The notes below the pieces were generated by a model. The model searched no databases. It had not been told where the DNA came from and was given only the letters and a program-made list of their open reading frames with translations. From Candidatus Woesebacteria bacterium GW2011_GWB1_39_12 (GTDB lineage: Bacteria; Patescibacteriota; Microgenomatia; UBA8517), in NCBI GenBank assembly GCA_000993405.1, contig LBWB01000008.1:26325-90324 (forward strand): 64,000 nt of DNA, in the 5' to 3' direction. Made by a program: the position numbers and the translations under genes. Shown here piece by piece: positions 4,628-19,047 of this stretch (position 1 is its first letter; each line of letters begins with the position of its first letter).

Positions 4628-5512
4628 ATGAAAAAAAACTTCCCCAAAATTAAAAAAGCGATAATCGCTGTCGCAGGCTATGGTACCAGATTCCTCCCAG
4701 CAAGCAAAAATGTCCCCAAGCAGATGTTTCCCATCATCGATAAACCTATAATTCATCATGTCGTGGACGAGTGCGTTGCTTCTGGCATCGAAGACATAAT
4801 TATAGTAACCCAAGCAGGCCAAGCAGTTATGGAGGATCATTTCGACACCCATGTGGAATTAGAGCATATCTTAGATAAAAACGGCAAAGAAGAACTTCTT
4901 AAAACTGTCAAAGAAATTCCTCAGCTAGCTAATTTTGTATATGTTAGACAAAAGAAAAATTATCCGTATGGGAATGGAACACCACTTTTATGTGCAGCTC
5001 CCTTAATTGATGATAATGAAGCCTTTGCTTATCTTTTTGGAGATGATCTTGTTATGTCAAAAAAGCCTTGTCTAAGGCAGCTTATTGAGGTTTATGAAAA
5101 AGAGGAATGTGATGGAGTAATAGCAACTCAAGAAATTTCTCCAGATGTAGTGAATAAGTATGGAATTGTAAAATTTAACCCAGAAAATAATGAGTTTGAA
5201 GGTATAGTTGAAAAACCTGAAATTGGAAAAGCTCCTTCAAACCTAGCAGAATTCGGAAGATTTATTCTCAACTACAAAACAATTAAAGAATTGAAAAAAT
5301 TAGATACCGGAAAGGGAGGAGAATTGTGGCTAACGGATACTATTACCAAAGCTAAAAAAAATGGTGCCAGGTTTCTAATTCACAAGATAGAAGGAGAGTG
5401 GATGACGACGGGCGACCCTTTAACTTACATGCAAACACAGGTTAAGTTTGCACTTGAGAGACCCGATATTGGTGAAGAATTCAAAAAGTTTTTAAAAACC
5501 CTCAAGCTCTAA
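4628..5512 (+). CDS. galU: UTP--glucose-1-phosphate uridylyltransferase
   Basis: Trimmed from track ORF 4361..5512 to the internal ATG at 4628. N-terminus 'MKKNFPKIKKAIIAVAGYGTRFLPASKNVPKQMFPIIDKPIIHHVVDE' is a GalU signature. Confidence 0.8.
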   Translation: MKKNFPKIKKAIIAVAGYGTRFLPASKNVPKQMFPIIDKPIIHHVVDECVASGIEDIIIVTQAGQAVMEDHFDTHVELEHILDKNGKEELLKTVKEIPQLANFVYVRQKKNYPYGNGTPLLCAAPLIDDNEAFAYLFGDDLVMSKKPCLRQLIEVYEKEECDGVIATQEISPDVVNKYGIVKFNPENNEFEGIVEKPEIGKAPSNLAEFGRFILNYKTIKELKKLDTGKGGELWLTDTITKAKKNGARFLIHKIEGEWMTTGDPLTYMQTQVKFALERPDIGEEFKKFLKTLKL

Positions 5513-5762
5513 AAAGTAAGCTGAAGATAATTACAATTCCTAAAATTGCAATTGCAAAGTATTCAACAACCACGCTTAGGTGTAAATCCTTGTGAATATG
5601 GTGATGTATCAAACCCCAAACAATGTAACCTAGACTAGCCGCAACAATCACCGCAAACTGGAACACCCGATCCCATGAGAAAACCGCAAAACCGATAGTA
5701 GCCGCAACAAGTATACCTATAAGGGGAAGGTAATGTCGTAAGTGATGTGTAATGTCTCTCAT
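5502..5762 (-). CDS. Small His-rich two-TM membrane protein, hypothetical
   Basis: 86 aa with two hydrophobic helices and the motif 'WGLIHHHIHKDLH'. It is the last gene of the sortase operon. Confidence 0.4.
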   Translation of the reverse strand: MRDITHHLRHYLPLIGILVAATIGFAVFSWDRVFQFAVIVAASLGYIVWGLIHHHIHKDLHLSVVVEYFAIAILGIVIIFSLLFRA

Positions 5763-6722
5763 TTAAAGTATTTCCCCCACTTTAGCAATTAAAAGTATTG
5801 CCAAAATCATTCCTAAAAATGCAATGTGTGCAAATGTTCTTCCTCCAATTCTTGTAATATTTCTTCTTGTAACTATTATTCCATCAATGACTAATACAAC
5901 AAGGAGTAAAACCGTAGTCGCCACAGCAACCCCCCTAGTTGATTCAAATGGAGAAATTAAAGTTTGAAATCTACCCGCTCTTTCCTGAACTGGCTCTTCC
6001 AATATTATTATCTTTTCACTGCCTTGAGTAGGAGTGATAACTCCAGCAAAAAACTGCGGGGTTGGAGTGAGCGTGGCTAGTGCCAAAGGAGTCGGCGTAA
6101 TCTCAATCTGGGGTTTTGCGGCAACTACAGGAACTTGAGAAGTTGTATCGCTAAATTGAGTTCCGAAAAGTGAAACTATTAGTGTAGTATCCACTCCTCC
6201 CAAATCCCCTTCAACAACAGCGACTCCAATTTCTTTATATTTACCCGAAAGCAAATTTTCCCTGTGAGAAGGAGAGGCCATCCAAGCCTCCATTGCCGAA
6301 TTTGGATTAGAAAAGTCTCGAGCTAAATTCTCTCCTGCATATCGATATTTATAACCGACGTCCGTAAAAAATTTCCAGGGTTCGGTTCCATCAGGAGCTG
6401 TGTGTGCCCAATAATCCTGGGAAAGCATGTGTTCTCCTTTAAGCCTTGCTGCTTCAGTCAAAAGTGCACTCGTGGATAGAGCTGTTACGCCATTTTCTGC
6501 TCTTCTCTGATTTGTCAGATTGATTATCTCAGTCGGGGGGATATTTGCAGCATATCCCAAAATTTTGACACCTGATAAAGGAAGAGCCCGCAAAATTATC
6601 TGATAGACAACCAAAAAAAGCGCTAACAGCAATAAGGAAGACGAATGAAGCAATTTTGCTTTGTGATTATTACTGTGTCTGGGAAAAAGAAAATGGGATA
6701 ATGTTATCGCGGCAGTATTCAT
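5763..6722 (-). CDS. CAP / SCP / PR-1-like (YkwD family) domain protein with N- and C-terminal membrane segments
   Basis: 'GENLARDFSNPNSAMEAWMASPSHRENLLSGKYKEIGVAVV' matches the CAP-domain core. A Pro/Thr-rich linker and a C-terminal TM follow. Confidence 0.65.
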   Translation of the reverse strand: MNTAAITLSHFLFPRHSNNHKAKLLHSSSLLLLALFLVVYQIILRALPLSGVKILGYAANIPPTEIINLTNQRRAENGVTALSTSALLTEAARLKGEHMLSQDYWAHTAPDGTEPWKFFTDVGYKYRYAGENLARDFSNPNSAMEAWMASPSHRENLLSGKYKEIGVAVVEGDLGGVDTTLIVSLFGTQFSDTTSQVPVVAAKPQIEITPTPLALATLTPTPQFFAGVITPTQGSEKIIILEEPVQERAGRFQTLISPFESTRGVAVATTVLLLVVLVIDGIIVTRRNITRIGGRTFAHIAFLGMILAILLIAKVGEIL

Positions 6723-6766
6723 TTCATTTAATCTTAAACTTTAGAAAGCATTCTTTCAAGAGAATT

Positions 6767-7321
6767 CTAAACTCTTTTTGCAATGACTATCAGCCTTTTT
6801 GAGTCAGCGAACCCGCTACATGTATAAAGAGTTAAAGTTTCGTCTGCCGTTTCACCTATAACCTCTATCTGATTGGGATAAACCTCTTTTATATCACGAA
6901 CTTCATATCCGAACCAGCCGTTTTTGGTAAGAACATATAATTTTGTACCTTCTTTAATGGATTGAAGTGGTAAAAACAGTCCCTCCCGAGCGTGTGCAAA
7001 TATCACTTGATTCCCGACTTGTCCCGGTATCCCAGATCCCATTCCCCATCCTGCCTTATCTTCAAAAACCTCCCAATATCCATTGACTATATTTGCTTTT
7101 TTTACTTCTAAATCTAAACTCAATTGTGGAATCATAATTCTTTCAGGAATTTTGGCATCATCAACCTCCTCACTTGAAAGTTTCTCGACTTTTACAGGTT
7201 CGCTCTCAAAACTGACACTTTGAGAAACAGGAGTTGTTTTTCGCCCTATGAAAAGTAAGATGCCCAAAAATAAAAGCGAAATACCCAGTGTAATCCTAGG
7301 TACAGAAGTTTTGTTCTTCAT
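6767..7321 (-). CDS. Sortase family transpeptidase
   Basis: N-terminal TM anchor. Catalytic 'TLYTCSG' (TLxTC), upstream His ('VIFAHAREG') and a C-terminal Arg. 184 aa. Confidence 0.8.
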   Translation of the reverse strand: MKNKTSVPRITLGISLLFLGILLFIGRKTTPVSQSVSFESEPVKVEKLSSEEVDDAKIPERIMIPQLSLDLEVKKANIVNGYWEVFEDKAGWGMGSGIPGQVGNQVIFAHAREGLFLPLQSIKEGTKLYVLTKNGWFGYEVRDIKEVYPNQIEVIGETADETLTLYTCSGFADSKRLIVIAKRV

Positions 7322-7328
7322 AAGAAAC

Positions 7329-8492
7329 TTATTTTACTCTTTTTTTTAACGAAGCAAAGTTTTTTTGAGGAAATAATTCATCAACAACTATCTTACCTCC
7401 TAAGGAAATCATTGCAAGGGCAAGGAAGAAAAATAGAGCCTGAGCGCCTTCGCTTGAAGTATCGGATAGACCGATAATTCCAGGACCTCCTGCCTCTGTT
7501 GCAGCCGCGCTGGGAAGAATAGACCCTGGTGGAGAAGTATTATTATCCTTCTCCTTGTCTTTCTCCACCGAAGGGGGTAACCCTCCACGATCAGGTTCAT
7601 CATCTTTATCACCTGGATCGAAAATATCCTCACAACAATCTACTTCAACATTACCTAAATTAATAAAATTATTAATAAATACTTCTAAGTCAATGTCCCC
7701 AGTCTTTATTGTCACATTCCCGCCAGAATTCCCATCAGCTTGATTTCCTCCCGAATTCAAATCCCATAAAAGGTAATTTTCTATATCGGCGGCAAATTGT
7801 GTGTAAACTTCAGTATCGTTGAAAAAACTGACACTTATATCGTTATTAGAATCCGTTCCGTTCTCAGAAATTTTTGCAATTAAACCCGGATTTCCCGACT
7901 TTACACTTACGGAACTTGTGTTAACGGGTGCATTTATTATCTTTGCACTTACAGTGATATTACCCGTTGTAATAGTCACATTACCCCCCGAATTGTCGTT
8001 CGCGGAATTTGAACCGGTTGATGCCGTACCACTAATGTAATTGGTTATGGTCGCAGTTTGATTTGACGTAATAGTCGTCTGACTTGAAGAAGTAATGTTT
8101 ATAGCGTTTGTTGAATCGCTCCCGTTTCCCGATATTGTCACCTCGGAAGGTGTCGGACAACAACCTATGTTTACAGTCGAAGTGTTTCCACTATTTTCTA
8201 CCACTACCTGACTCGCTGCATCTCCTGTTGTAATCGAAGCATCTCCATTTGTATTTTCGGAAACTGAATTACCGCCAGTATTTGTATTTGTATCAACGCT
8301 ATTAGAAGTCTCGCTGGCATTAGATTGTGTTACAGTTGTTTGACTCTCTTGTGTAATATTTACTTCACTTGAAGAACCGGATCCATTATCGGTAATCACA
8401 AACTCCTCTGCTTTGACATAACCTACTCCCCTACCCAAGAGTAAGTTTAAAACTAAAACTATAGCAACAAACCTTCTAAATTTTACAAGCAT
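7329..8492 (-). CDS. Secreted repeat-rich surface protein, paralog A (NTGG-x-ITTGD module family)
   Basis: Signal peptide 'MLVKFRRFVAIVLVLNLLLG'. Modules include 'NTGGNSVSENTNGDASITTGDA' and 'GGNVTITTGNITVSAKIIN'. Cys doublets 'GCCPTP' and 'DCCEDIF'. The C-terminus has a hydrophobic stretch plus 'KKRVK'. Confidence 0.6.
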   Translation of the reverse strand: MLVKFRRFVAIVLVLNLLLGRGVGYVKAEEFVITDNGSGSSSEVNITQESQTTVTQSNASETSNSVDTNTNTGGNSVSENTNGDASITTGDAASQVVVENSGNTSTVNIGCCPTPSEVTISGNGSDSTNAINITSSSQTTITSNQTATITNYISGTASTGSNSANDNSGGNVTITTGNITVSAKIINAPVNTSSVSVKSGNPGLIAKISENGTDSNNDISVSFFNDTEVYTQFAADIENYLLWDLNSGGNQADGNSGGNVTIKTGDIDLEVFINNFINLGNVEVDCCEDIFDPGDKDDEPDRGGLPPSVEKDKEKDNNTSPPGSILPSAAATEAGGPGIIGLSDTSSEGAQALFFFLALAMISLGGKIVVDELFPQKNFASLKKRVK

Positions 8493-8503
8493 TTGCCTAA
8501 AAT

Positions 8504-10699
8504 TTAGGCAGTGACCGTAGGAGAAACACTTTGTGCAAATTTTCTTCTCCTCTTCAATAAAAGTAAAATAGCAACGGGAATAAGCGGGATAAGATAGGCA
8601 AGGTTAATGTGAACAACCTTTTTCCCGGCTGTTGGCGTACCACCCGAATCATCACTTCCTGCCATTGCAAGTACATTTGTCCCTTCATCTGTAGTTTCAA
8701 ATGTAGTTTCAAACGCACTTGGTGTAAAAATTCCCAAAACATTATTTGCTTTCTGGCTGATAAATGTATTAGTAGAACCTGCATTTTGCTGCGAATTAGC
8801 CGAATCTCCATTATTACCTCCTGAGTTGTTTTGATTTTCCGCTTCAGCTCCACCTAAACCCAAATTCTCATTTTCATTTTCCTTTGCAAAGCCAGGTCCT
8901 ACAAAGTTACCCATCCAACTTCCAAACACATTGACAACCGTAACAAATAGTTTCCCGCTTCCTACAATGTTGTTGTTTACGAAATTAACTATGTTGGCAA
9001 TAACGTTTGCATCACCTGTTGTAATCGACGAATTACCTCCGACATTATCGCTTGCAGAATTACCTCCTGTGTTAGCAAGAAGGTTGACATTGTTTACAAT
9101 CTTTGCTTCATTCGATTGAACTATTGTATTGGTGTTTGTTTGATTTATATTCCCAGTATTTGTTGATCCGCTTCCGTTTCCGGAATTCGTCACAAATATT
9201 TCACCATTCTCGTCATATGCAATCTCAAATTCAGACGAGCCTGCAATATTAGAGCCATCAAATCCTAAAATCTTTCCGATCCAGCGTCCGGCCTCGTTGA
9301 CTATAACCAACCAATAGTTACCGCCGACCAAATTGTTATTCGCTATATTGACAACTTGAGCCAAAACATCGGTGTCGCCCGTCGTAATATTATTATCGCC
9401 ACCCGTATTCGCACTTACTGAATTGTCTCCGGTTGTTGCTGTAATAATAAGATTATTTTCTATATCAGCGTTGTTAAACTGATTGATGTCCGTCTCACTA
9501 TTTTGAGTAAGAGATGCTGTATTAGTCGAGTCTGTTGCGTTACCTGTATTCGACAGACTTGCATCGTTTCCACAACAGGAAGTTAGTGACCCTTCAGGTA
9601 AAATTATATCTCCGATTAAATTTCCATAGATATTAACAACGGCGTATATAACTCCTCCAACTATATTGTTATTGGCGAAACTCAAAATACTTGCGGTAAC
9701 ATTGACATCGCCCGTTGTAATTGACGAGTCCCCTCCGGTATTTCGATCAGTGTTATTACTTCCAGAGTCCGAAGCCAAAAGCATTGAATTCTCGATAGTA
9801 GCATCATTTTCTTGGAAAGTATTTTCGGATCCGTTTACATTAATATTGCCTGTATTAGTCGAGTCTTCTCCATTTCCAGAATTTACAACACCCAGGTCTC
9901 CCGTTGAGCATCCAGAAATACATCCTTGGGAGAAATCTAAAATAACGTCTCCAATATGATCATCCACCACATTAAATTCAGCTACGGCTACCCCATCAAC
10001 GTTTGTATTAACCGCTGTTATAATAGTTCCCGACGTGTTTGCGTCTCCCGTTTCGATTGACGAATTCCCAACATTATTTGATGCAGAATTATCACCGGTT
10101 GTAGTCGTTCCCGTTAAGTTGTTTCCAACGTTTGTACTATTATCTTGGAAAGTGTTATTTGAATCGGATAGATTTATTGATCCAGTATTAGTTGAGTCAC
10201 TAGCATTATCACTATTTCCTACAAAAACCGATCCTGTTCCTCCAGATGGAACAAATGTTGAATAATTATTATTACCTGTCGTCGTTAAAACAGCGGTATT
10301 TGTAGCGTCCCCAGTATCGATTTCTACGTCTCCCACTTGTCCATCAGCTACTTCTCCGCTTCTTTCCGAAGTAGGCTGTTGACTTTCTCCACTACCGTCA
10401 GTGCTTCCGCTTTCTGGTTCGTCCTGCGAAATACTTTCTTCATCTTCCGGCGTGGGTGTAGGACTTGCCTCAAGCATCTCTTCCAAAGTTGGTGCATCTG
10501 GCGCGTCAGGAGCATCTGGCGCACTTGGGGCTTCAGGCACCGTTGTCGTACTTTCTGGTTCAGGCGGTGGCGTCGGTGCACTTGGCGCATCTGGTATCTC
10601 AAATGCCAATACATAAACGGCTGGATTTTGTACTAATAAGAAAAGCCCTATGATTATGGCTATAAACGACCTTTTAATAAAATTTTGTTTTTTAAACAT
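8504..10699 (-). CDS. Secreted repeat-rich surface protein, paralog B (three ~130-aa modules)
   Basis: The maximal ORF runs to 10822. The start was set at the internal ATG 10697-10699 ('MFKKQNFIKRSFIAIIIGLFLLV', a signal-peptide-like N-terminus). Repeats include 'NTGGDSSITTGDVNVTASILSFANNNIVGG', 'NTGGDNNITTGDTDVLAQVVNIANNNLVGG' and 'VGGNSSITTGDANVIANIVNFVNNNIVGSG'. 'SCCGND' and 'GCISGC' are present. The C-terminus 'LAMAGSDDSGGTPTAGKK', then a hydrophobic helix, then 'KRRRK', resembles a sorting signal. Confidence 0.55.
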   Translation of the reverse strand: MFKKQNFIKRSFIAIIIGLFLLVQNPAVYVLAFEIPDAPSAPTPPPEPESTTTVPEAPSAPDAPDAPDAPTLEEMLEASPTPTPEDEESISQDEPESGSTDGSGESQQPTSERSGEVADGQVGDVEIDTGDATNTAVLTTTGNNNYSTFVPSGGTGSVFVGNSDNASDSTNTGSINLSDSNNTFQDNSTNVGNNLTGTTTTGDNSASNNVGNSSIETGDANTSGTIITAVNTNVDGVAVAEFNVVDDHIGDVILDFSQGCISGCSTGDLGVVNSGNGEDSTNTGNINVNGSENTFQENDATIENSMLLASDSGSNNTDRNTGGDSSITTGDVNVTASILSFANNNIVGGVIYAVVNIYGNLIGDIILPEGSLTSCCGNDASLSNTGNATDSTNTASLTQNSETDINQFNNADIENNLIITATTGDNSVSANTGGDNNITTGDTDVLAQVVNIANNNLVGGNYWLVIVNEAGRWIGKILGFDGSNIAGSSEFEIAYDENGEIFVTNSGNGSGSTNTGNINQTNTNTIVQSNEAKIVNNVNLLANTGGNSASDNVGGNSSITTGDANVIANIVNFVNNNIVGSGKLFVTVVNVFGSWMGNFVGPGFAKENENENLGLGGAEAENQNNSGGNNGDSANSQQNAGSTNTFISQKANNVLGIFTPSAFETTFETTDEGTNVLAMAGSDDSGGTPTAGKKVVHINLAYLIPLIPVAILLLLKRRRKFAQSVSPTVTA

Positions 10700-10913
10700 T
10701 TGTATATTTTTTATTAACCTTATTAAAGACTTAAGCCAAGGATAGTAAAACTTAAGCTCAAATATCGGTTTATTTATATCCCTAACTTCAATAAATTCAT
10801 TTACAATTTTTAAGGCAGGCATATTATTTAAATACTTATTTCATTAGTCCTCAGGTTTACAGGGTACCCCCGCTGAAGTGCTAGCAGAGGCTACCCTGCT
10901 CCTAAAGATTGGT

Positions 10914-12191
10914 TTATTCGCTCGATCCCATTAACCAAGCCCAGAAAAAGGCCCAATTAAATCCGAAATCAACTCCCCAGTCTCCTGGAAGTTCGAGATC
11001 AGGACCGTCGCCCAATACGTTCACATTGCCGGAGTTATCAATATCAGCTCCTGCGTGAGCATCACCAGTTTCGATTGTCGGATCAGCTCCGTCAACTCCA
11101 CCAGTATTATCTTCGGCATCGTTGTCACCAGTGTCAGCATCAGCGTCAACCTTGTTATCAAGTTCACAATCTCCCTTATGTTCATCACCTAAACCTTCAG
11201 GACCACCTTCTTCAGCACAATTGCCTTGGAAAGCTAGTTGTCCTTGACCAAGTTTAAGAGTGATTTTGTTGGTTGAATCAGACGCGTTTCCGGCTATCTT
11301 TGCCAAAAGGTCCTCCAACAAACATCCACAGTCGAGGTCAGCCCAGTTAAAGTTGACCATGTTGTCAACTTCAACATCAACGTCGGCGTCACCCGTATCG
11401 ATTTCAACGTCGCCTCCGGTATTATCTTTGGCATCGTTGTCACCGGTATCGGCGTCAGCCCAAACACCGTTGAATATATCAGCAACATTTTCTTGAGCTA
11501 ACAAAACTTGGCTTGCGAGATCAATTTTTATTTCATTGTCGCTCTTTGTTCCATTACCAAGAATTCTTGCTGAAAGGCTTCCCAAACCGCCTCCATCTCC
11601 AACTTGCGCGGAATTGGCATTTGCGGTTGTGAATACTTCAACATCAACTTCGGCGTCACCGGTAGTTATTTTTACACTTCCGCCGGTATTATCTTCGGCA
11701 TCGTTGTCACCAGTGTCAGCATCAGCGTCAACCTTGTTTGTCACGTCAGCGTAGTTACTTTGGAAAACCTCGGTTCCGCTCTTTAGACCCAAGTTAACGT
11801 CATTATCTGTATCAGAAGCATTTCCTGAAATCAAAACGTCAATTGGACCTGACGGACAACAGCCAACTTCTGCAGAGTTACTGTTTAAAGTATTTCCAAC
11901 AGCAACATCTACATCTGCATCGCCTGTGTCGATCTCAACATCACCTCCGGTATTATCATTTGCATCGTTACCACCTGTGTCTGCATCGACATCTACATCA
12001 TTGTAAACATCGGCTACATTTTCTTGCACAACTGTAGTGGTAGTGGTAATCGTACTCGTTATCTCGTTATCCGAATTCGTTCCATTACCAGAAATCTCGT
12101 AAGTTTGTTGTGCAAATACAGGGAGTACAGTATTCAAAAGTAGTGCACCGGAAGCAAAAACTACTGCAATTTTCTTTTTTAGATCTGTCAT
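10914..12191 (-). CDS. Secreted repeat-rich surface protein, paralog C
   Basis: Start trimmed to ATG 12189-12191 ('MTDLKKKIAVVFASGALLLNTVLPVFAQQ'). It is preceded by 'GGGGGTGA' about 12 nt upstream. Repeats include 'DTGGNDANDNTGGDVEIDTGDADVDV'. Cys pairs 'GCCPSGP' and 'DCGCLL'. Confidence 0.6.
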   Translation of the reverse strand: MTDLKKKIAVVFASGALLLNTVLPVFAQQTYEISGNGTNSDNEITSTITTTTTVVQENVADVYNDVDVDADTGGNDANDNTGGDVEIDTGDADVDVAVGNTLNSNSAEVGCCPSGPIDVLISGNASDTDNDVNLGLKSGTEVFQSNYADVTNKVDADADTGDNDAEDNTGGSVKITTGDAEVDVEVFTTANANSAQVGDGGGLGSLSARILGNGTKSDNEIKIDLASQVLLAQENVADIFNGVWADADTGDNDAKDNTGGDVEIDTGDADVDVEVDNMVNFNWADLDCGCLLEDLLAKIAGNASDSTNKITLKLGQGQLAFQGNCAEEGGPEGLGDEHKGDCELDNKVDADADTGDNDAEDNTGGVDGADPTIETGDAHAGADIDNSGNVNVLGDGPDLELPGDWGVDFGFNWAFFWAWLMGSSE

Positions 12192-12224
12192 AATTTTCTT
12201 TTCACCCCCTTTCTTTTTGGTCAC

Positions 12225-12299
12225 CCCAGTTAGATAGCTTACGCATCTAACGGGGCTAGGCACTTCACCCTAAACACCCCGCTTTCAAACGAAAACGGG
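12225..12299 (-). promoter_or_regulatory. Structured 5' leader of the surface-protein operon (two GC-rich hairpins)
   Basis: Minus-strand RNA would form CCCGUUUUC-GUUU-GAAAGCGGG (12278-12299) and CCCCGUUAGAU-(9 nt)-AUCUAACUGGGG (12225-12256), upstream of the SD/ATG at 12191. It is GC-rich in an AT-rich background. Confidence 0.4.
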
Positions 12300-12681
12300 C
12301 AGTTCTATTTGAAAATCTAATTCGATTATAGATATAGGTTAATATCTATGAATCAGATATCTATATATAACAAGCTCATTTTGTTTTGTCAATAGGCTTC
12401 CTCTTATAAAGAAGTTCTCATTTATATTGTTATATAGGTATTCTATTATAGATTGTAAGTGTGGAAAGGTTTATGTCCTTTTTTATCAAGTTATTAGGAT
12501 TATAATTTTTGGCCGAATTTACTGTTAGTTTTTTTTATATTCCTAACGGTTATTTGTGTCACAATGCCGTTTTGAATATATACTTCAACACTTCCGTAGG
12601 ACTTAACGCTTTCTAATGCAGAAGTAATCTCTTTTATGAGGGAAGTGGAAATTTTTTTTGTCGACAAGTCAGGCATTTTTT

Positions 12682-13446
12682 TTAAAATTGAAGAGCAATC
12701 TCTTCTTTATCGCCATTTATTTCTCCTACCCGAATTACCAAGTCGTGATCAGTATCGTTTATTGGAAATCCAATCCTTGTGTATTTGGTTGATATGGCTT
12801 GAACCTCGACAGGGTCGTTGTGAATATCCGGCGCCAACCATTCATCCTTATTGCCGTTAACGGACAGCCTAACATAGTCTCTTGATTTAATTTCTATAGA
12901 CTGGTTAAACTCGTTGGCAATTTTTAAATTAAGTATAAGAAACGTTCTTCCTTTGATAGCCTTGGCTCTTTGTCCTTTTACTACTATTTCATCACGCAGT
13001 TCCGCCTTTTCTATTAAATATTTGAGTTTAGCAACTTCTTCTCCCTTGTCATTTTTTAACGGAAATACAAATTCTTTGTTAAAATCTATCGAGGACCTGG
13101 CGCTGCCCACATCAATTACTTCTCCTGAGGAGCCTTTAGACTTATAATTATCCAAAATCTTTACTAGACCCAAAAGTACAATAACTATTACAGTTACTAA
13201 AGCGATGGATTTGAAATATTTCTTTGGAGTAAACCTCTGACCGACATTCTCCAAATGTTGGTCTCCAACAATATTTTCTCTATTTTTTAAAAGCCTTATT
13301 TTATCAACAAAAAGCAAAGTACTTCCCTTTAATAGATTAAATAGTTTAGATGGAAAAGTATAAATTTTCTGAAAGTAAGTGATAACGCCAGTTAGTTCTG
13401 AACGCTCTACCATCGGAATTGATACTGATATGTTTTTAAATATCAT
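12682..13446 (-). CDS. Membrane-anchored hypothetical protein
   Basis: 254 aa with a single TM ('SIALVTVIVIVLLGLV') and a beta-rich extracytoplasmic domain. No recognisable catalytic motif. Confidence 0.4.
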   Translation of the reverse strand: MIFKNISVSIPMVERSELTGVITYFQKIYTFPSKLFNLLKGSTLLFVDKIRLLKNRENIVGDQHLENVGQRFTPKKYFKSIALVTVIVIVLLGLVKILDNYKSKGSSGEVIDVGSARSSIDFNKEFVFPLKNDKGEEVAKLKYLIEKAELRDEIVVKGQRAKAIKGRTFLILNLKIANEFNQSIEIKSRDYVRLSVNGNKDEWLAPDIHNDPVEVQAISTKYTRIGFPINDTDHDLVIRVGEINGDKEEIALQF

Positions 13447-13544
13447 TTTATTTTCAGTTTATCCTAAGAAAGTAAAATCAAGAGGCAGTTCGTCGGTGAA
13501 AGTATGGTATCGAAGTATATCAAACTTGTCAAGGTGAAGTTCCA

Positions 13545-14036
13545 CTACTCGATTTCCTTTACTTCGACTGTTATGTGAACTATTGATTCACTAGGCTCTT
13601 TGCTAATCTCCACATTTACTTCCTCGCCTTCTCGTGCACCTGTCAACTTATTAAGAATATTACTATTGGCGCTTGTCTTCACAAAGGTTTTGACATTCAT
13701 CCCTTCGTTTATTATTTTATTTTTGTACCAATCGGTTACTGTATTAGACGAGTCCTGACTTTGTAAAGTTAATGTCTTTTCTGAATCACCAACAACTACC
13801 GAATTCGGATATTTATAACTTTCGAGTGGGGAGGTTCGAGGAGTAGGAACTAAGGTTGGAACTAGAGTGGGAGTTGTAATATTGGCTTCGACAGAAACTT
13901 TGCCTGAGGGATTTTTATTACTATCATCGGACAAAACTTTTCCTTGCTGGTTTCCTAGTTCAATTTTAGTCTTTTGACCAACAAATATCCCAACTGCCAA
14001 TATACAAACTGCCGCAATTAATAATAGTGTCTGCAT
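13545..14036 (-). CDS. Membrane-anchored hypothetical protein with PT-rich linker
   Basis: 163 aa with an N-terminal TM and a 'TTPTLVPTLVPTPRTSP' linker. Confidence 0.4.
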   Translation of the reverse strand: MQTLLLIAAVCILAVGIFVGQKTKIELGNQQGKVLSDDSNKNPSGKVSVEANITTPTLVPTLVPTPRTSPLESYKYPNSVVVGDSEKTLTLQSQDSSNTVTDWYKNKIINEGMNVKTFVKTSANSNILNKLTGAREGEEVNVEISKEPSESIVHITVEVKEIE

Positions 14037-14084
14037 ACTTTAAACACCTACATTGTATACCGCCCGTGCAAATTTACCCGAAAT

Positions 14085-15467
14085 TCACTGACAAAGATAA
14101 TGACTTGGAGCATATCTACACCACCAAGGCTTGGACTGACCACTCGGGGTGGGTGTAGGGGTTGGAGTTAAGGTAACGCTAGGAATCAACGTAGGAGTAG
14201 GAGTTAAAATGGGAGTGGGAGTCAAGGTTGGCGTAGGTGATGGACTCGGTATGGTGGTAGGTGTGAGAGTGGGAATTGAAGTAGGGACAGGCTGAATACT
14301 ACAATCGAGGGCACGACACACATTCACCCTTCCAAAATTCCAGTATAAACCGCTTCCTGATATTATCTCGCTTGAGTCCTCAATTTTTTGCCGTACTTCA
14401 ACATTTGTCCAAGAAGGATTTTTCGCGATCACAAGCCCTGCCAGCCCGGAAACAAATGGGGTTGCCATAGAAGTCCCCGAAAGATATTCATAACCATTTT
14501 CGTATGTCGAAAGGATAGAAACTCCGGGAGCTGCGACATCTACCCAGGTCCCGTAGTTAGAGAAGGTTGCCTTTTTATCCTCGCTAGTTGTAGCACCAAC
14601 TGCTAAAACAGGTTCATAGTACGCTGGGTACATCGGAAAACTACTTCCAGAATTCCCTGCAGCCGCAGCTATTATGACTCCTTTGTCCCAAGCATAGTTA
14701 ATCGCATTTTCCAATGTGTATGAGGTAAATCTTCCACCCAAGGAAAGATTAATTACTTCCGCGCCGTTATCGGTAGCCCAAACAATGCCGTTGGCAATCC
14801 AGGAGTAGTAACCGCTTCCTGTATCGTCCAGAACTTTTACAGACATCAGTCTTGGCAACCAGGCAAGTCCCGCAACCCCTTGATTATTATTTGTAGCCGC
14901 GCCGATTATTCCTGCCACATGAGTCCCGTGACCGTCGGGATCCGTGGTTGTAAAAAAAGGACAAGAAGAATTTATGCAATTTACCGAAACAGAAATTTTA
15001 CTCGCCAAATCCGGATGAGAGTTATTTATACCTGTATCAATGACTGCTATGTCGACATCCTCCGATCCATTTGTAACTTCCCAACCGTTTACTGCCTCAA
15101 TTTTAGCTAGACCCCACTGGTTTGGAAAAAGAGGGTCATTGGGTAAAACTTGCTTTTCGGCAACATAGTCTTCTTCAACATACTCCACAAAAAAGTTTTT
15201 CTTTAACTTCTCAGTCGATTCAAAAACCCTATCTTTAGGCACGTCAACAACGTAGGTCGAAGAAAGTTTGAGTTCTTCCTTCAATGAAAGTCCCTGGTCT
15301 TTAACAACCTTGTCTTTTAAGAAGCGAGGAGCAAAATTTCTGAATCTAACAATATACCTTTTAGTATCTTGGGAAGAAGCCTTGACAGAAGCTACCCATG
15401 TCACTTTCTGAAATTCAAACAATGAAAGAAGAAACATTAGGATTATAAAAACAAGGCCTTTTTTCAT
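14085..15467 (-). CDS. Subtilisin-like serine protease (peptidase S8) with propeptide and C-terminal PT-rich tail
   Basis: Catalytic triad blocks 'DTGINNSHPDL', 'HGTHVAGIIGA' and 'GTSMATPFVSGLAGLV'. Signal peptide. A ~50-aa (PT)n linker precedes 'KPWWCRYAPSHYLCQ'. Confidence 0.8.
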   Translation of the reverse strand: MKKGLVFIILMFLLSLFEFQKVTWVASVKASSQDTKRYIVRFRNFAPRFLKDKVVKDQGLSLKEELKLSSTYVVDVPKDRVFESTEKLKKNFFVEYVEEDYVAEKQVLPNDPLFPNQWGLAKIEAVNGWEVTNGSEDVDIAVIDTGINNSHPDLASKISVSVNCINSSCPFFTTTDPDGHGTHVAGIIGAATNNNQGVAGLAWLPRLMSVKVLDDTGSGYYSWIANGIVWATDNGAEVINLSLGGRFTSYTLENAINYAWDKGVIIAAAAGNSGSSFPMYPAYYEPVLAVGATTSEDKKATFSNYGTWVDVAAPGVSILSTYENGYEYLSGTSMATPFVSGLAGLVIAKNPSWTNVEVRQKIEDSSEIISGSGLYWNFGRVNVCRALDCSIQPVPTSIPTLTPTTIPSPSPTPTLTPTPILTPTPTLIPSVTLTPTPTPTPSGQSKPWWCRYAPSHYLCQ

Positions 15468-16536: not shown

Positions 16537-16959
16537 TTATATAATTTCAAGTTTTTTTGCCCAAAGCTTAACTTTTTCAGACATCTTAGGCAATAATTTC
16601 CAAATAAAATAAATTGCTAAAGTGGCACCAATCGTATCAAAAATCATGTCTCTAAAAGTCGGATCACGTCCTGGAGTAAAGGATTGGTGAAATTCGTCTG
16701 TAATACCATAGAATGACGCCAAAAATACTGAAATATAACCTGTTTTTTTGGTCTCAACTTTTTGTGACTTCAGAGCCCGATAGATAAGAGTGGAAAGGAT
16801 AGCGTAGATAATAACATGAGCCGACTTCTTGACAATAAAATCCCGCCAATGAATTTCGGAAGCCCTTACCGTCGGATTATTAGAAAAAGCAAAAATGACG
16901 ATAAGCCATATAAAAACAGGTAGCCAATATTTAAGAAACCGGAAAGTTTTATGTTTCAA
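16537..16959 (-). CDS. VanZ-like family membrane protein
   Basis: 140 aa with the VanZ signature 'DEFHQSFTPGRDPTFRD' and four TM segments. Confidence 0.65.
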   Translation of the reverse strand: MKHKTFRFLKYWLPVFIWLIVIFAFSNNPTVRASEIHWRDFIVKKSAHVIIYAILSTLIYRALKSQKVETKKTGYISVFLASFYGITDEFHQSFTPGRDPTFRDMIFDTIGATLAIYFIWKLLPKMSEKVKLWAKKLEII

Positions 16960-16972
16960 TTTATTAACCTTA

Positions 16973-17872
16973 CTAAGAATTATATTCTTTTTTCCTTTGT
17001 CTTAGAAAATAGTAAAAAGAACTACCGATTAATCCAACACCCAAAAGAATAGGAATTAAAGCGAAAAATGGAAATTTTTTCTCCACTTCTTCATCGGCAG
17101 CTTTTGACTCTTTTTTGCCAACATCTTTTATGCCAAGAACTTCGTTGATACCGTTACTCCCCACCTTAAGCGTTTGCCCTTCACCAGTTTCCTGACTATC
17201 TTCCTCACTTATTGTGGGAGCAACCGTCGATGTAGCTTTAGGTTTAGATGTGGGCACACTTGTACTCGTAGGTTTAGACGTTGGCGTATTTGTAGGCTTT
17301 GTGGTTGGAGTAGGAGAATCGGTTGGCTCAGGCGTAGGCGTCGGACAAGGATCTAATTCAGACGTATTATTTGATGATCCTTTTGATAATGCCGTCTTAA
17401 ATCTTTCAATTGTTGAATTCGCATCAGGATATCTTCCTATCGAACCCAATTCTGATGGTGTACACACCCCACCTTTATCTCCGTAAGAAATTCTATCAAC
17501 TTCACTTCGATCAGGTTTCAAGAGAATTAATATGTCTCCACCATTATTAAGTCTATTAGAAACTTCCACAACATAAAACTGATTACTTGAAGGTCCAATT
17601 ATGATATCTGAAGGAATTTCCTTCATATCGGTTGCGGTTCCATCGTCGTCTAAAATCCATCCTGAAATATCAGTATTTTCATAAGCGAACAACTCTATCC
17701 AATCGTCAGAAGTAGAAGAACTAAACTCATTAATCACTACCTGTGCGGAAATGGTTGTTTGAAAAATAGTAAGAAGAAAGATAGCTAAAGGTATTGACCA
17801 ATACACCTTGAGTGTATTCCCAATGTATTTGTATCTATTTGCCGAGTCTGACTCGATTTGCATTATTCGCAT
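16973..17872 (-). CDS. Lamin-tail-domain (LTD) surface protein with PT-rich linker and C-terminal TM anchor
   Basis: 'VVINEFSSSTSDDWIELFAYENTDISGWILDD' matches the LTD motif. It also has a 'PTPTPEPTDSPTPTTKPTNTPTSKPTSTSVPTSKP' linker and a C-terminal hydrophobic helix plus 'RQRKKEYNS'. Confidence 0.55.
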   Translation of the reverse strand: MRIMQIESDSANRYKYIGNTLKVYWSIPLAIFLLTIFQTTISAQVVINEFSSSTSDDWIELFAYENTDISGWILDDDGTATDMKEIPSDIIIGPSSNQFYVVEVSNRLNNGGDILILLKPDRSEVDRISYGDKGGVCTPSELGSIGRYPDANSTIERFKTALSKGSSNNTSELDPCPTPTPEPTDSPTPTTKPTNTPTSKPTSTSVPTSKPKATSTVAPTISEEDSQETGEGQTLKVGSNGINEVLGIKDVGKKESKAADEEVEKKFPFFALIPILLGVGLIGSSFYYFLRQRKKEYNS

Positions 17873-17895: not shown

Positions 17896-19047
17896 TTAAT
17901 AGTTGATGTGCAAATACAATGTGTCCAAATCAGAGTCATCGTGGTCAACACGTACATATCTAAGCCGACAGCTTCCGGTCCCATAACTGCCTCTATATAA
18001 AGTACCTGCTCTTACGGCTTTTACCTCAGAAGATTCACTATTTATATCAACCCCGTTATGAAACTGGTATACCCTTCCGACCCAAGTATTTCTAACCGCC
18101 CAAGTGCTCCCATATCCTTGGGAAAATTTTATTTTTGGATTTATAGGCCAATCCCAACCACCCGTTGGACTGAAAGGATCTCCATCATTTGATCCACATG
18201 ATGAACCTGAACAATTCTCATAGTCTACACCTGACCTTAAATAACTAAAAGGATTTTGGGTAGTTGTCCCCTGGCGAATGATAAAGTGAAGGTGTGAACC
18301 GCTTGAATTACAGGAAGCTCCCTGAATAATCGAGGCAATCCTTTGTCCTTGAGAAACTTTTCCCACTTCTTCCTCTTGTCCTTTACCTGCAATAATTGCC
18401 TGAATGGCCTCGAATTCTGCCCGAACTGCCGCCAACAGCTGCTGATAACGCCTTTCGTCATTCCTTGTCTGTTCCAAAAGAACTGCCTTAGCGGTTTTCT
18501 GCGCCCCAAGCACGTTTTTTTGCTCTTCCAGTTCCTTCTGAAGTTCTTCCTGATCCGATTTTTGATCTTGATAGTCAACCTGGGCTTTTTCAAGTCTTAC
18601 CAGTAAGTCTCTGTCTGCTTCCTGAATTTTCTGTAAATAGTGGAAGCTAGAAACCGCCGAATCCAGATCAGGTGAAAAAATAAACATCAAGTAGGTTTCG
18701 TTTAATCTTGACATTTTGTAGGTATATACGACTCTGGAAGTAAAAGCTTTTGTTAAAGACTGAAGAGAAGTTTCAAGCTGTACTATTCTTCCTCCAAGAA
18801 GTAATATTTTTTCCTCTGTTTGGGTAATTTTTAAGGTAGTTAAACGAATTTGAGCATCGTACTGGGCAATTTGATTGGATAAAGTGCCAGCTTGAGATTT
18901 TAATTTATTGATCTCCTGCTCATATTGTTCTATTTCTTTACCCAAGCGTTCAAGTTTTTCCGACTCACTTTCAGCAAATGCAAAAGGAGGTTGACCGATT
19001 AAAAGTAGTAGTAAAAGGACAAAGAATGCTTTCTTTATTTTTGACAT
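17896..19047 (-). CDS. Coiled-coil M23 peptidase, EnvC-like (murein hydrolase activator/DD-endopeptidase)
   Basis: Signal peptide, a long coiled-coil and a C-terminal M23 (LytM) domain ('SHLHF', 'FHNGVDI'). It lies immediately downstream of ftsEX. Confidence 0.7.
   Translation of the reverse strand: MSKIKKAFFVLLLLLLIGQPPFAFAESESEKLERLGKEIEQYEQEINKLKSQAGTLSNQIAQYDAQIRLTTLKITQTEEKILLLGGRIVQLETSLQSLTKAFTSRVVYTYKMSRLNETYLMFIFSPDLDSAVSSFHYLQKIQEADRDLLVRLEKAQVDYQDQKSDQEELQKELEEQKNVLGAQKTAKAVLLEQTRNDERRYQQLLAAVRAEFEAIQAIIAGKGQEEEVGKVSQGQRIASIIQGASCNSSGSHLHFIIRQGTTTQNPFSYLRSGVDYENCSGSSCGSNDGDPFSPTGGWDWPINPKIKFSQGYGSTWAVRNTWVGRVYQFHNGVDINSESSEVKAVRAGTLYRGSYGTGSCRLRYVRVDHDDSDLDTLYLHINY

What the first reader, a model, noticed from the sequence alone, without database searches (positions are those of the whole stretch)
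5502..12300. Sortase-linked operon with three tandem paralogs of a repeat-rich surface-protein family
Gene order on the minus strand is paralog C (426 aa), then B (~732 aa), then A (387 aa), then sortase, a CAP-domain protein and a His-rich small TM protein. The three paralogs share a ~35-130 aa module ('SGNGxDSTNTGNI...QxNxAxIxN...TGGNSxSxNxGGxSSITTGDAxVxAxIVNxxNNNIVGG') and conserved Cys-Cys doublets (GCCPTP, DCCEDIF, SCCGND, GCCPSGP, DCGCLL). A and B end with a hydrophobic helix plus a basic tail like sortase substrates, but with no canonical LPXTG. Possible variants are LAMAG or TPTAG in B and ILPSAAATEAGG in A. I cannot place the module in a named domain family, so it may be a lineage-specific adhesin or sheath family.
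Basis: partly seen in the sequence, partly recalled or inferred. Interest (0 to 1): 0.75.

Follow-up and report, generated by a model that had tools for sequence, protein, structure and literature searches.

The report
Sortase-anchored beta-solenoid surface protein cluster
A gene cluster conserved across the Microgenomates branch of the ultra-small CPR bacteria encodes three related repeat-built surface proteins (one probably wall-linked by its own sortase through an unusual LSDTS signal, one membrane-anchored, one secreted). None of them belongs to a described protein family, so this is probably a major, unstudied envelope structure.

Summary

Corrections:
- A's sorting motif is GLSDTSS, not ILPSAAATEAGG.
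- Orthologs carry either LPxTG or GL[SA]x[TA][SG], and each type occurs with its own sortase subtype (29/29 and 21/21 loci).
- B's LAMAG and TPTAG are not conserved. B has a conserved INLAW membrane anchor instead.
- C has no anchor and is very acidic.
- The conserved unit is F-E-G(DUF2292)-C-B-A-sortase, seen in about 80 Microgenomates loci. CAP and the small membrane protein accompany it only in some lineages.

New: gene C is followed by a covarying RNA hairpin with an invariant GCACUUC loop, and its 5' leader carries the complement GAAGUGC.

Best reading: one envelope-anchored assembly with A and B as anchors and C as the abundant subunit. This is inferred, not shown.

The parts
13545..14036 (-). 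F: 163-aa protein with an N-terminal TM/signal segment, a Pro/Thr linker and a small ectodomain. Conserved upstream partner.
   Evidence: A homolog lies within 8 kb of B in 49/84 loci, and the order F-E-C-B is the commonest pattern. No Pfam family.
12682..13446 (-). E: 254-aa single-pass membrane protein with a highly conserved ~140-aa ectodomain that weakly resembles DUF4352.
   Evidence: Present in 73/84 loci directly upstream on the same strand. 1322 homologs, all 'hypothetical'. 36 invariant columns in A6. 8/25 members weakly match DUF4352, best E 2.5e-4. No PDB match.
12500..12676 (-). G: unlisted 58-aa ORF, DUF2292 (YezD-like) small protein, between E and C.
   Evidence: Translation. Pfam DUF2292, 32 bits against a cut-off of 22. 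A homologous ORF on the same strand, which where checked (window, L003 and the listed coordinates) lies between E and C, in 70 of 84 loci.
12192..12352 (-). Structured 5' leader of C. It contains GAAGUGC (12260-12266), the complement of the 3' hairpin loop, followed by a strong SD (AAGGGGGUGA).
   Evidence: Sequence. Fold z -3.2. GAAGTG lies within -320..+60 of the called ORF start (mostly 40-80 nt upstream) in 64/74 loci, against 0.11 expected per 380 nt. SD of the GGGGGTGA/GGAGGTGA type in 58/64. No Rfam match.
10914..12191 (-). C: 425-aa secreted paralog with a signal peptide, 4 modules and an acidic/aromatic C-terminal tail. No membrane anchor. Net charge about -74.
   Evidence: 4 module hits; conserved tail ...FNFSFDLSDLLxxLG in homologs; pI 4.05, a single N-terminal hydrophobic segment.
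10848..10908 (-). Conserved RNA hairpin immediately 3' of the C stop codon. The loop AGCACUUC is at 10875-10882. No U-tract follows.
   Evidence: -35.8 kcal/mol, z -4.7. 73/76 loci have z below -3, against a median z of -0.2 after B. The 7-bp inner stem is 87% paired, 7/7 pairs show double changes, 0/500 shuffles reach the observed values, and slid registers pair at 33-47%. CACUU is invariant.
8504..10699 (-). B: 731-aa paralog (772 aa if started at 10822) with a signal peptide, a Pro-rich N-terminal linker, 4.5 modules each followed by a conserved hydrophobic hairpin insert, a low-complexity spacer and a C-terminal INLAY(W)-TM-KRRRK anchor.
   Evidence: 612 homologs, 43-62% identity (best local alignment); conserved columns; the best-predicted part of each module has pLDDT above 90; TM-like segment 694-712.
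7329..8492 (-). A: 387-aa paralog with a signal peptide, 3 modules, an acidic/Pro linker and a C-terminal sorting signal. LSDTS is residues 342-346 (DNA 7455-7469), followed by a hydrophobic segment (350-368) and a basic tail.
   Evidence: L342 and T345 conserved in at least 90%; 75/111 homologs carry GL[SA]x[TA][SG] and 26/111 LPxTG; A is the only such ORF in the window.
6767..7321 (-). Sortase with an N-terminal TM segment and catalytic His (FAHAREG), Cys (TLYTCSG) and Arg (SKRL). It fits no defined class.
   Evidence: Pfam PF04203, 75.8 bits. TIGR01076, 48.4 against a cut-off of 39.35; every class model scores far below its cut-off. Alignment of 50+ cassette sortases.
5763..6722 (-). CAP/YkwD-domain membrane protein. 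A lineage-specific neighbour, not part of the conserved core.
   Evidence: Pfam CAP, 64.3 bits. Near the cassette in 15/84 loci, always followed by the small TM protein.
5502..5762 (-). 86-aa His-rich protein with 3 TM-like segments, paired with the CAP gene.
   Evidence: three hydrophobic segments. 14/84 loci. Only a sub-threshold DUF5656 match.

Best explanation
The cluster most likely encodes one envelope-anchored surface assembly of Microgenomates, built from paralogous beta-solenoid proteins that differ mainly in how they are held at the cell.

Shown by sequence and comparison:
- All three proteins have signal-peptide-like N-termini and consist of one ~85-aa Asn/Gly/Thr-rich module that AlphaFold models as all-beta solenoid-like rungs.
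- A carries a cell-wall sorting signal matched to the sortase encoded 7 nt downstream. The window's lineage uses GLSDTS(S) with its own sortase subtype, and other lineages use LPxTG with another subtype.
- B ends in a conserved membrane anchor.
- C has no anchor, is extremely acidic, has the strongest ribosome-binding site, and is the only cistron bracketed by conserved RNA elements.

Inferred:
- The sortase cleaves A within LSDT|S and links it to peptidoglycan, while B stays in the membrane.
- C (and, in other lineages, a 200-aa paralog D) is the abundant secreted subunit. It would dock on or stack against the anchored paralogs through exposed solenoid edges, helped by divalent cations and by disulfides between the conserved Cys clusters. 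The result would be a fibre or coat.
- E, F and the DUF2292 protein are candidate assembly or regulatory factors.
- The hairpin after C would raise C output relative to B and A.
For: - Paralogy and module.
- Gene order F-E-G-C-B-A-Srt is kept in about 80 species-level loci.
- Motif and sortase co-variation: 21/21 and 29/29 loci, plus one LAAAG. The aligned position of LPATG and GLSDTSS is shown. The catalytic H/C/R are conserved.
- Anchors.
- C is acidic: net -74, pI 4.05.
- B is 43-62% identical (best local alignment) among its 120 best-scoring homologs, which come from several Microgenomates candidate phyla. By general knowledge, that is slow evolution for a surface protein and fits a structural role better than a host-specific adhesin.
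- Hairpin after C and the complementary 5' motif.
- Strong SD for C only.
- Design precedent: bacterial abpX matrix-fibril loci combine an acidic (pI ~4) major subunit, minor subunits, an LPXTG anchor protein and a sortase (bioRxiv 10.64898/2026.01.04.697558).
Against: - There is no direct evidence of any A-B-C contact or polymerisation.
- No multimer prediction was possible, and no coordinates were available to test cap-free ends or Cys distances.
- Model confidence is moderate overall (pLDDT 66-69). Foldseek finds no significant PDB neighbour.
- There is no sequence relation to curli (hhalign probability 0.2%).
- Motif and sortase co-variation may reflect one or a few ancestral switches, so the loci are not independent.
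- The expression ranking is inferred from RNA and SD features only.
- No proteomic or imaging data exist for this organism.
Confidence: 0.5

Rival explanations
1. Three independent monomeric beta-helix adhesins. A, B and C would be separate surface proteins, each binding a host or substrate ligand on its own, like FHA-type or PfbA-type beta-helix adhesins. They would be tandem duplicates kept together only by ancestry.
Against: Copy number, order, length and anchoring mode of each paralog are fixed across about 80 loci. B's 120 best-scoring homologs are 43-62% identical (best local alignment). The modules carry no appended ligand-binding domain. C has no anchor at all. The dedicated RNA elements around C suggest stoichiometric control.
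Confidence: 0.28
2. A Gram-positive-type sortase-polymerised pilus. The sortase would join A, B and C covalently (Thr-Lys isopeptide bonds) into a shaft, tip and base, as in Spa/Fim pili.
For: Three structural genes plus a sortase resemble a pilus islet in outline. The LPxTG-lineage cassette sortases score best against the class C model and the window's own sortase against class D, all far below cut-off.
Against: Only A has a sorting signal, and B and C lack one. There is no YPK pilin motif. The predicted fold is a beta-solenoid, not CnaA/CnaB Ig-like. There is a single sortase, and it reaches no class cut-off.
Confidence: 0.05
3. Secreted or anchored beta-helix enzymes or cation-binding wall proteins. 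The solenoids would act as polysaccharide-active enzymes or as Ca2+/metal buffers of the cell wall, not as a filament or coat.
Confidence: 0.1

Closest known systems
Sortase-anchored surface proteins with beta-solenoid stalks (e.g. S. pneumoniae PfbA, L. reuteri SRRP)
Streptomyces chaplins (long chaplins anchored by class E sortases via LAXTG, short chaplins secreted and polymerising); comparison from general knowledge
   Same: Paralogous secreted proteins with conserved Cys pairs. Some carry a sorting signal and some are free, and a non-LPXTG motif with Ala/Ser at position 2 is used.
   Different: No chaplin domain was detected (no Pfam hit). The module is 85 aa and is repeated 3-4.5 times. 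The sortase does not reach the class E cut-off (45 against 160 bits). Amyloid behaviour is untested.
Curli (CsgA/CsgB) and Fap functional amyloids
   Different: hhalign probability against E. coli CsgA is 0.2%. No Curlin_rpt hit. Foldseek is not significant. This is a monoderm organism, so the CsgG/E/F outer-membrane secretion route would not apply, and anchoring is by sortase and a TM helix.
TasA-superfamily matrix fibril loci (bacterial abpX clusters with LPXTG anchor protein and sortase; bioRxiv 10.64898/2026.01.04.697558)
   Same: The locus design is alike: an acidic (pI ~4) major secreted subunit, paralogous minor subunits, an LPXTG-anchored paralog and a sortase. C has pI 4.05.
   Different: The fold and assembly principle differ: those are beta-sandwich subunits joined by donor-strand complementation, whereas these are solenoid repeats. 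No signal peptidase I gene is conserved in this cluster.
Pam pili of CPR bacteria (bioRxiv 10.64898/2026.03.03.709456)
   Same: A CPR-restricted surface filament system, with reported homologs in Microgenomatia, whose pilins also carry paired cysteines.
   Different: Pam pilins are two-domain Ig-like proteins assembled by donor-strand exchange with chaperone-like partners, and no sortase is involved. The proteins here are repeat solenoids with a sortase.
3'UTR-5'UTR base-pairing in bacterial mRNAs (S. aureus icaR; B. subtilis hbs), and stabilising hairpins after major-subunit genes (pap, puf operons); comparison from general knowledge
   Same: A conserved hairpin sits directly after the C cistron, and its loop is complementary to a conserved 5'-leader motif.
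   Different: The pairing partner is not the SD. The six core nucleotides never vary, so pairing is unproven. No Rfam family matches.

Membership tests
Sortase (PF04203 / TIGR01076) | Match to the family model above its curated cut-off | tested here: met
   PF04203 75.8 bits (cut-off 26.6). TIGR01076 48.4 bits (cut-off 39.35).
Sortase (PF04203 / TIGR01076) | Catalytic His, Cys (TLxTC) and Arg | tested here: met
   FAH, TLYTC and KRL are aligned and conserved in more than 50 cassette sortases.
Sortase classes A-F | Score above a class-specific NCBIfam cut-off | tested here: not met
   Class D-related models 43-49, E 45, C 38.5, F 33.7 bits against cut-offs of 140-166. The same holds for the LPxTG-lineage sortases.
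Sortase substrate (cell-wall sorting signal), protein A | N-terminal Sec signal peptide | tested here: met
   A basic n-region plus a hydrophobic segment at residues 1-19, with VKA|EE ahead of the first module. No dedicated predictor was available.
Sortase substrate (cell-wall sorting signal), protein A | LPXTG pentapeptide | tested here: not met
   The window has LSDTS. Orthologs have LPATG, LPVTG or LPITG at the aligned place. TIGR01167 on ortholog P0090 scores 15.3 against a cut-off of 15.9.
Sortase substrate (cell-wall sorting signal), protein A | Hydrophobic segment and positively charged tail after the motif | tested here: met
   Hydrophobic segment at residues 350-368, then KIVVDELFPQKNFASLKKRVK.
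Sortase substrate (cell-wall sorting signal), protein A | Cognate sortase; motif specificity tracks the enzyme | tested here: met
   The sortase starts 7 nt after A. 21/21 GL[SA]x[TA][SG] tails occur with the window-type sortase and 29/29 LPxTG tails with the other type. Cleavage itself is untested.
Sortase substrate, protein B | Conserved LPXTG-like pentapeptide before the C-terminal TM segment | tested here: not met
   LAMAG and TPTAG fall in unconserved columns. The conserved element is K..INLAW plus a TM segment with an invariant Pro.
Gram-positive sortase-assembled pilus | Every pilin carries a sorting signal; pilin motif YPK Lys; CnaA/CnaB Ig-like fold; class C sortase | tested here: not met
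   Only A has a sorting signal. No YPK. The models are all-beta solenoid. The class C model scores 38.5 against 160.
Curli CsgA/CsgB (PF07012 Curlin_rpt) | Curlin repeat detectable by sequence profile | tested here: not met
   No Pfam hit at E up to 0.1. hhalign probability 0.2%.
Curli CsgA/CsgB (PF07012 Curlin_rpt) | Stacked strand-turn-strand beta-solenoid fold | tested here: inconclusive
Curli CsgA/CsgB (PF07012 Curlin_rpt) | Amyloid polymerisation (ThT or Congo red binding, SDS-resistant fibres) | not testable with these tools
   Needs recombinant protein.
RTX beta-roll (PF00353) | GGxGxD nonapeptide repeats | tested here: not met
   No Pfam hit. No GGxGxD in A, B or C.
Chaplin (PF03777) | Chaplin domain | tested here: not met
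   No Pfam hit for A, B or C.
DUF2292 (YezD-like), small ORF G | Match above the Pfam gathering score | tested here: met
   32 bits against 22.
Rfam RNA families (hairpin and leader of C) | Any covariance-model match | tested here: not met
   No match at E up to 1 in 5000-14500.

The most novel reading that the evidence does not exclude
The cluster would specify a previously unrecognised, Microgenomates-wide surface polymer. This would be a curli-like cross-beta (solenoid-stacking) fibre or coat made of the acidic subunit C, nucleated and held by a sortase-linked paralog (A) and a membrane-anchored paralog (B). It would be cross-linked by the conserved Cys clusters. Its subunit ratio would be set by a new RNA device: a 3' hairpin whose invariant loop kisses the 5' leader of the same cistron. 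It would also define a new sortase specificity class (LSxTS).
Probability: 0.3. Interest if true: 0.85.

Novelty: new variant of a known kind. Interest (0 to 1): 0.68.

Why it matters
Sortase is reported as near-ubiquitous in Microgenomates (PMC6744442), but I found no described substrate in the papers searched. This cluster supplies a candidate cognate substrate and a testable variant motif, with a natural specificity swap (LPxTG versus LSxTS, each with a matched enzyme). That swap is also of interest for sortase engineering. The paralog set is conserved across many candidate phyla of ultra-small, uncultured bacteria whose surface structures are thought to mediate their symbiotic lifestyle. 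It therefore names concrete targets for metaproteomics, cryo-ET and recombinant work. The protein module, protein E and the RNA elements are all absent from Pfam, NCBIfam, PDB and Rfam.

Tried and rejected
1. Named-domain placement. Pfam and NCBIfam scans of A, B and C gave nothing. Larger homologs also gave nothing except one sub-threshold PFF1_TM hit.
2. PDB by sequence, with single proteins and with the module profile: nothing meaningful.
3. Homology to curli: rejected at the sequence level. Foldseek is not significant.
5. Pilus model: rejected (see rivals).
6. Pam pili: read and found unrelated in fold and mechanism.
7. AFDB structure search: the library was unavailable.
8. RNAalifold on a MAFFT alignment of the 3' region gave no consensus because the alignment was ragged. 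This was solved by anchoring on the invariant loop.
9. Covariation test of the 5'/3' RNA pairing: uninformative because the six core bases never vary.
10. Looking for the module outside CPR: the two large searches list only the top hits, which are all family members, so the outer limit of the family stays unknown. One 1183-aa member is labelled 'Parcubacteria group'.
11. A fourth paralog (D) and further sortase substrates were sought in the window: none found.

Full report
**Origin and anatomy**

Protein A is 100% identical to a hypothetical protein of Candidatus Woesebacteria bacterium GW2011_GWB1_39_12, a member of the CPR superphylum Microgenomates. On the minus strand, transcription would run through:
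- C (10914-12191)
- B (8504-10699, or from 10822)
- A (7329-8492)
- a sortase (6767-7321)
- a CAP/YkwD-domain membrane protein (5763-6722)
- an 86-aa His-rich protein with three hydrophobic segments (5502-5762)

Gaps are short from B onward: B-A 11 nt, A-sortase 7 nt, sortase-CAP 44 nt, CAP-small protein 0 nt. This fits co-transcription.

A, B and C are clear paralogs. A vs C is 37% identical over 288 colinear residues (E 8e-50), A vs B gives E 2e-14, and C vs B gives E 3e-21.

They are built from one ~85-aa module, with consensus xxISGNGSDSTNxxxIxxxxxTxxxQxNxAxIxNxVxxxAxTGxNxAxDNTGGDxxITTGDAxVxxxIxNxxNxN. It is present three times in A, four times in C, and four and a half times in B. In B each module is followed by a ~25-aa hydrophobic insert, such as LVIVNEAGRWIGKILG or VVNVFGSWMGNFVGPG. 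These inserts are the most conserved parts of the protein.

Each paralog keeps four Cys at module boundaries, and these are invariant or nearly so in homologs. A profile of the module hits no other ORF in the 64-kb window.

None of the three proteins matches any Pfam or NCBIfam model or any PDB sequence.

**Fold**

AlphaFold2 with 111- and 118-sequence alignments gives all-beta models. A has mean pLDDT 69. B has mean pLDDT 66, with the best-predicted part of each module above 90 and the linkers below 50.

Foldseek finds nothing significant. The module profile has no detectable sequence relation to E. coli CsgA (hhalign probability 0.2%). I therefore call the fold beta-solenoid-like. It resembles curli in shape only.

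**Which protein is the sortase substrate**

Alignment of A orthologs shows that Daviesbacteria, Levybacteria, Chisholmbacteria and others end in a canonical LP[AVI]TG + hydrophobic segment + YLRLRSGRSP tail. Woesebacteria, including the window, have GLSDTSS at the aligned position, followed by a hydrophobic segment and a basic tail.

Among 111 homologs, 75 carry GL[SA]x[TA][SG]-type motifs (53 are exactly GLSDTSS) and 26 carry LPxTG.

In loci fetched from species-representative genomes, the motif type matches the subtype of the adjacent sortase without exception:
- 21/21 GL[SA]x[TA][SG] tails sit next to window-type enzymes (FAHAREG...TLYTCSGF).
- 29/29 LPxTG tails, plus one LAAAG, sit next to the other type (FAHSSN...LILQTCTPIGT).

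Both subtypes keep the catalytic His, Cys and Arg. Neither reaches any class-specific NCBIfam cut-off.

This makes A the cognate substrate and LS(D)TS the probable recognition motif. The caveat is that the two states may trace back to one or a few ancestral switches.

In B, LAMAG and TPTAG fall in unalignable low-complexity sequence. What is conserved in B is K..(I/V)NLAW, a hydrophobic segment with an invariant Pro, and a basic cluster. So B is a membrane-anchored protein, or it carries an unrecognised sorting signal.

C has no anchor. Its homologs share an acidic stretch and an amphipathic tail (...FNFSFDLSDLLxxLG). The mature protein has a net charge of about -74.

**Conservation and true extent of the cluster**

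A scan of one genome per GTDB species with the B alignment gave 190 confirmed hits, and 80 loci were fetched. Named records are Woese-, Gottesman-, Davies-, Levy-, Chisholm-, Ames- and Roizmanbacteria or 'Microgenomates/Patescibacteria group'. Many bulk-assembled MAG records are titled 'uncultured Gammaproteobacteria', which I take to be placeholder names.

The order C-B-A-sortase is almost universal.
- E, a single-pass membrane protein with a very conserved ectodomain that weakly resembles DUF4352 (73/84 loci).
- F (49/84 loci).
- G, a 58-aa DUF2292 ORF between E and C (70/84 loci).

Many lineages add a ~200-aa two-module paralog (D) on the opposite strand after the sortase. It is absent from this window.

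CAP and the small membrane protein follow the cassette only in Woesebacteria-type loci and a few others (about 15/84).

The module profile finds 3273 cluster representatives at E up to 0.001 among 1.84 billion proteins. Every named member seen is 'hypothetical'.

**RNA features around C (new)**

Directly after the C stop codon lies a long hairpin (window 10848-10908, -35.8 kcal/mol, z -4.7). An equivalent hairpin follows C in 73 of 76 loci with z below -3. Control regions after B have a median z of -0.2.

Its loop, (N)GCACUUC, is invariant while the stem covaries. The stem is 87% paired, all 7 inner pairs show compensatory changes, none of 500 shuffles reaches the observed values, and slid registers pair at 33-47%. 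No U-tract follows it, and Rfam has no match.

The 5' leader of C carries the exact complement, GAAGUG(C), mostly 40-80 nt upstream of the start, in 64 of 74 loci, against 0.11 expected by chance per 380 nt. The window copy is at 12260-12266. It is followed by a near-perfect Shine-Dalgarno sequence in 58 of 64 loci. B, A and the sortase have weak or no SD in the window.

The six core bases never vary. RNA-RNA kissing therefore cannot be separated from a protein-recognised motif by covariation. Either way, C is singled out for special, probably higher, expression.

**Mechanism proposed**

Shown: the features listed above.

Inferred:
- The sortase links A to peptidoglycan. That CPR bacteria have peptidoglycan and a Gram-positive-like envelope is taken from PMC6744442.
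- B stays in the membrane on an ~80-aa low-complexity stalk.
- C (and D elsewhere) is the abundant free subunit that associates with the anchored paralogs through exposed solenoid edges. The mature N-termini of A and C start directly with module 1, so there is no obvious cap. Cations and the Cys clusters would add stability. A disulfide-forming machinery is enriched in CPR.
- The design parallels curli (anchored nucleator plus secreted subunit), chaplins (sortase-anchored plus free paralogs), and bacterial abpX matrix loci (acidic major subunit, LPXTG anchor protein, sortase).
- The 43-62% identity (best local alignment) of B among its 120 best-scoring homologs, drawn from several Microgenomates candidate phyla, argues for a structural envelope element rather than a fast-evolving host-specific adhesin.

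I put about 0.85 on 'A is the substrate of the adjacent sortase' and about 0.45-0.5 on 'one joint assembly with C as the major subunit'.

**Rivals**

- Independent monomeric beta-helix adhesins (0.28).
- Enzymatic or cation-binding solenoids (0.10).
- A Spa-type sortase-polymerised pilus (0.05). This is contradicted by the lack of sorting signals in B and C, the lack of a pilin motif, the non-Ig fold and the single unclassified sortase.

**Novelty**

Sortase-anchored surface proteins, beta-solenoid stalks and anchored-plus-free paralog systems are all known kinds. This protein family, its multi-anchor paralog set, the partners E, F and G, the LSxTS motif with its matched sortase subtype, and the RNA elements are not in Pfam, NCBIfam, PDB or Rfam. 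Nor are they in the literature I could search. I rate it a new variant of a known kind, with a 0.3 chance of being a distinct kind of surface polymer.

Noticed in passing
window 10848-10908 (-); related loci L003-L084, first ~75 nt after the C stop codon: A conserved RNA hairpin lies directly after gene C, with an invariant loop (N)GCACUUC and a covarying stem. It has no U-tract and no Rfam family. It is present in 73/76 loci.
   Followed up: partly
window 12260-12266 (-) within the C leader 12192-12352: GAAGUGC in the 5' leader is the exact complement of the 3' hairpin loop and is conserved in 64/74 loci. In many loci a terminator-like GGAGGC...GCCUCCGUUUU element lies 20-70 nt upstream of it (39/64). 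The cause could be RNA kissing or a shared protein site; this is unresolved.
   Followed up: partly
window 12500-12676 (-): A 58-aa DUF2292 (YezD-like) ORF, too short for the 60-aa ORF list. A homolog lies on the same strand in 70/84 loci. It has no signal peptide and could be a regulator.
   Followed up: partly
window 12682-13446 (-) and 13545-14036 (-): Two conserved upstream membrane proteins (E and F) lie outside the finding's coordinates. The ectodomain of E is up to about 70% identical across lineages and weakly resembles DUF4352.
   Followed up: partly
L001 4161-4790, L014 12955-13572, L022 11578-12174 and about 35 other loci: A fourth paralog, D, is about 200 aa with two modules, a signal peptide, a single CCC/CxC cluster and a Lys-rich second module. 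It is encoded convergently after the sortase. It is absent from this window.
   Followed up: partly
L027 7788-10928 (protein P0500); L025 9946-10977: In some low-GC Woesebacteria, B and A form one ORF: B's TM anchor runs straight into A's signal peptide, and this is seen on 12 contigs. In these loci A ends right after ...GLSATSS(E/K), with no hydrophobic segment or basic tail.
   Followed up: no
window 10700-10822 (-): The start of B is ambiguous. The 41-aa extension from ATG 10822 (MPALKIVNEFIEV...) is also present, and similar, in two homologs (P0122, P0126). Most homologs start at the signal peptide. Neither start has a clear SD.
   Followed up: partly
window 14085-15467 (-): A subtilisin-like S8 protease with a Pro/Thr-rich tail and a terminal Cys pair lies upstream of F. 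A homolog is near the cluster in 19/84 loci.
   Followed up: no
whole window 1-64000: GC skew is negative in 31 of 32 2-kb bins, and the cumulative skew falls steadily to -3.76. All sizeable ORFs examined between 5.5 and 23.8 kb lie on the minus strand. This recalls the strand composition disparity reported for another Microgenomates genome (PMC7143001).
   Followed up: no
loci L007, L009, L013, L017 and others (record titles): Many MAG records that carry this Microgenomates-type cluster are titled 'uncultured Gammaproteobacteria bacterium'. These are probably placeholder or erroneous names. One record each is titled Nealsonbacteria and Parcubacteria.
   Followed up: no
window 16973-17872 (-), 16537-16959 (-), 17896-19047 (-): Further envelope-related genes lie upstream: a sub-threshold Lamin-tail-domain protein, a VanZ-like protein, and a coiled-coil M23 peptidase. 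Homologs are near the cluster in 15-18 of 84 loci.
   Followed up: no
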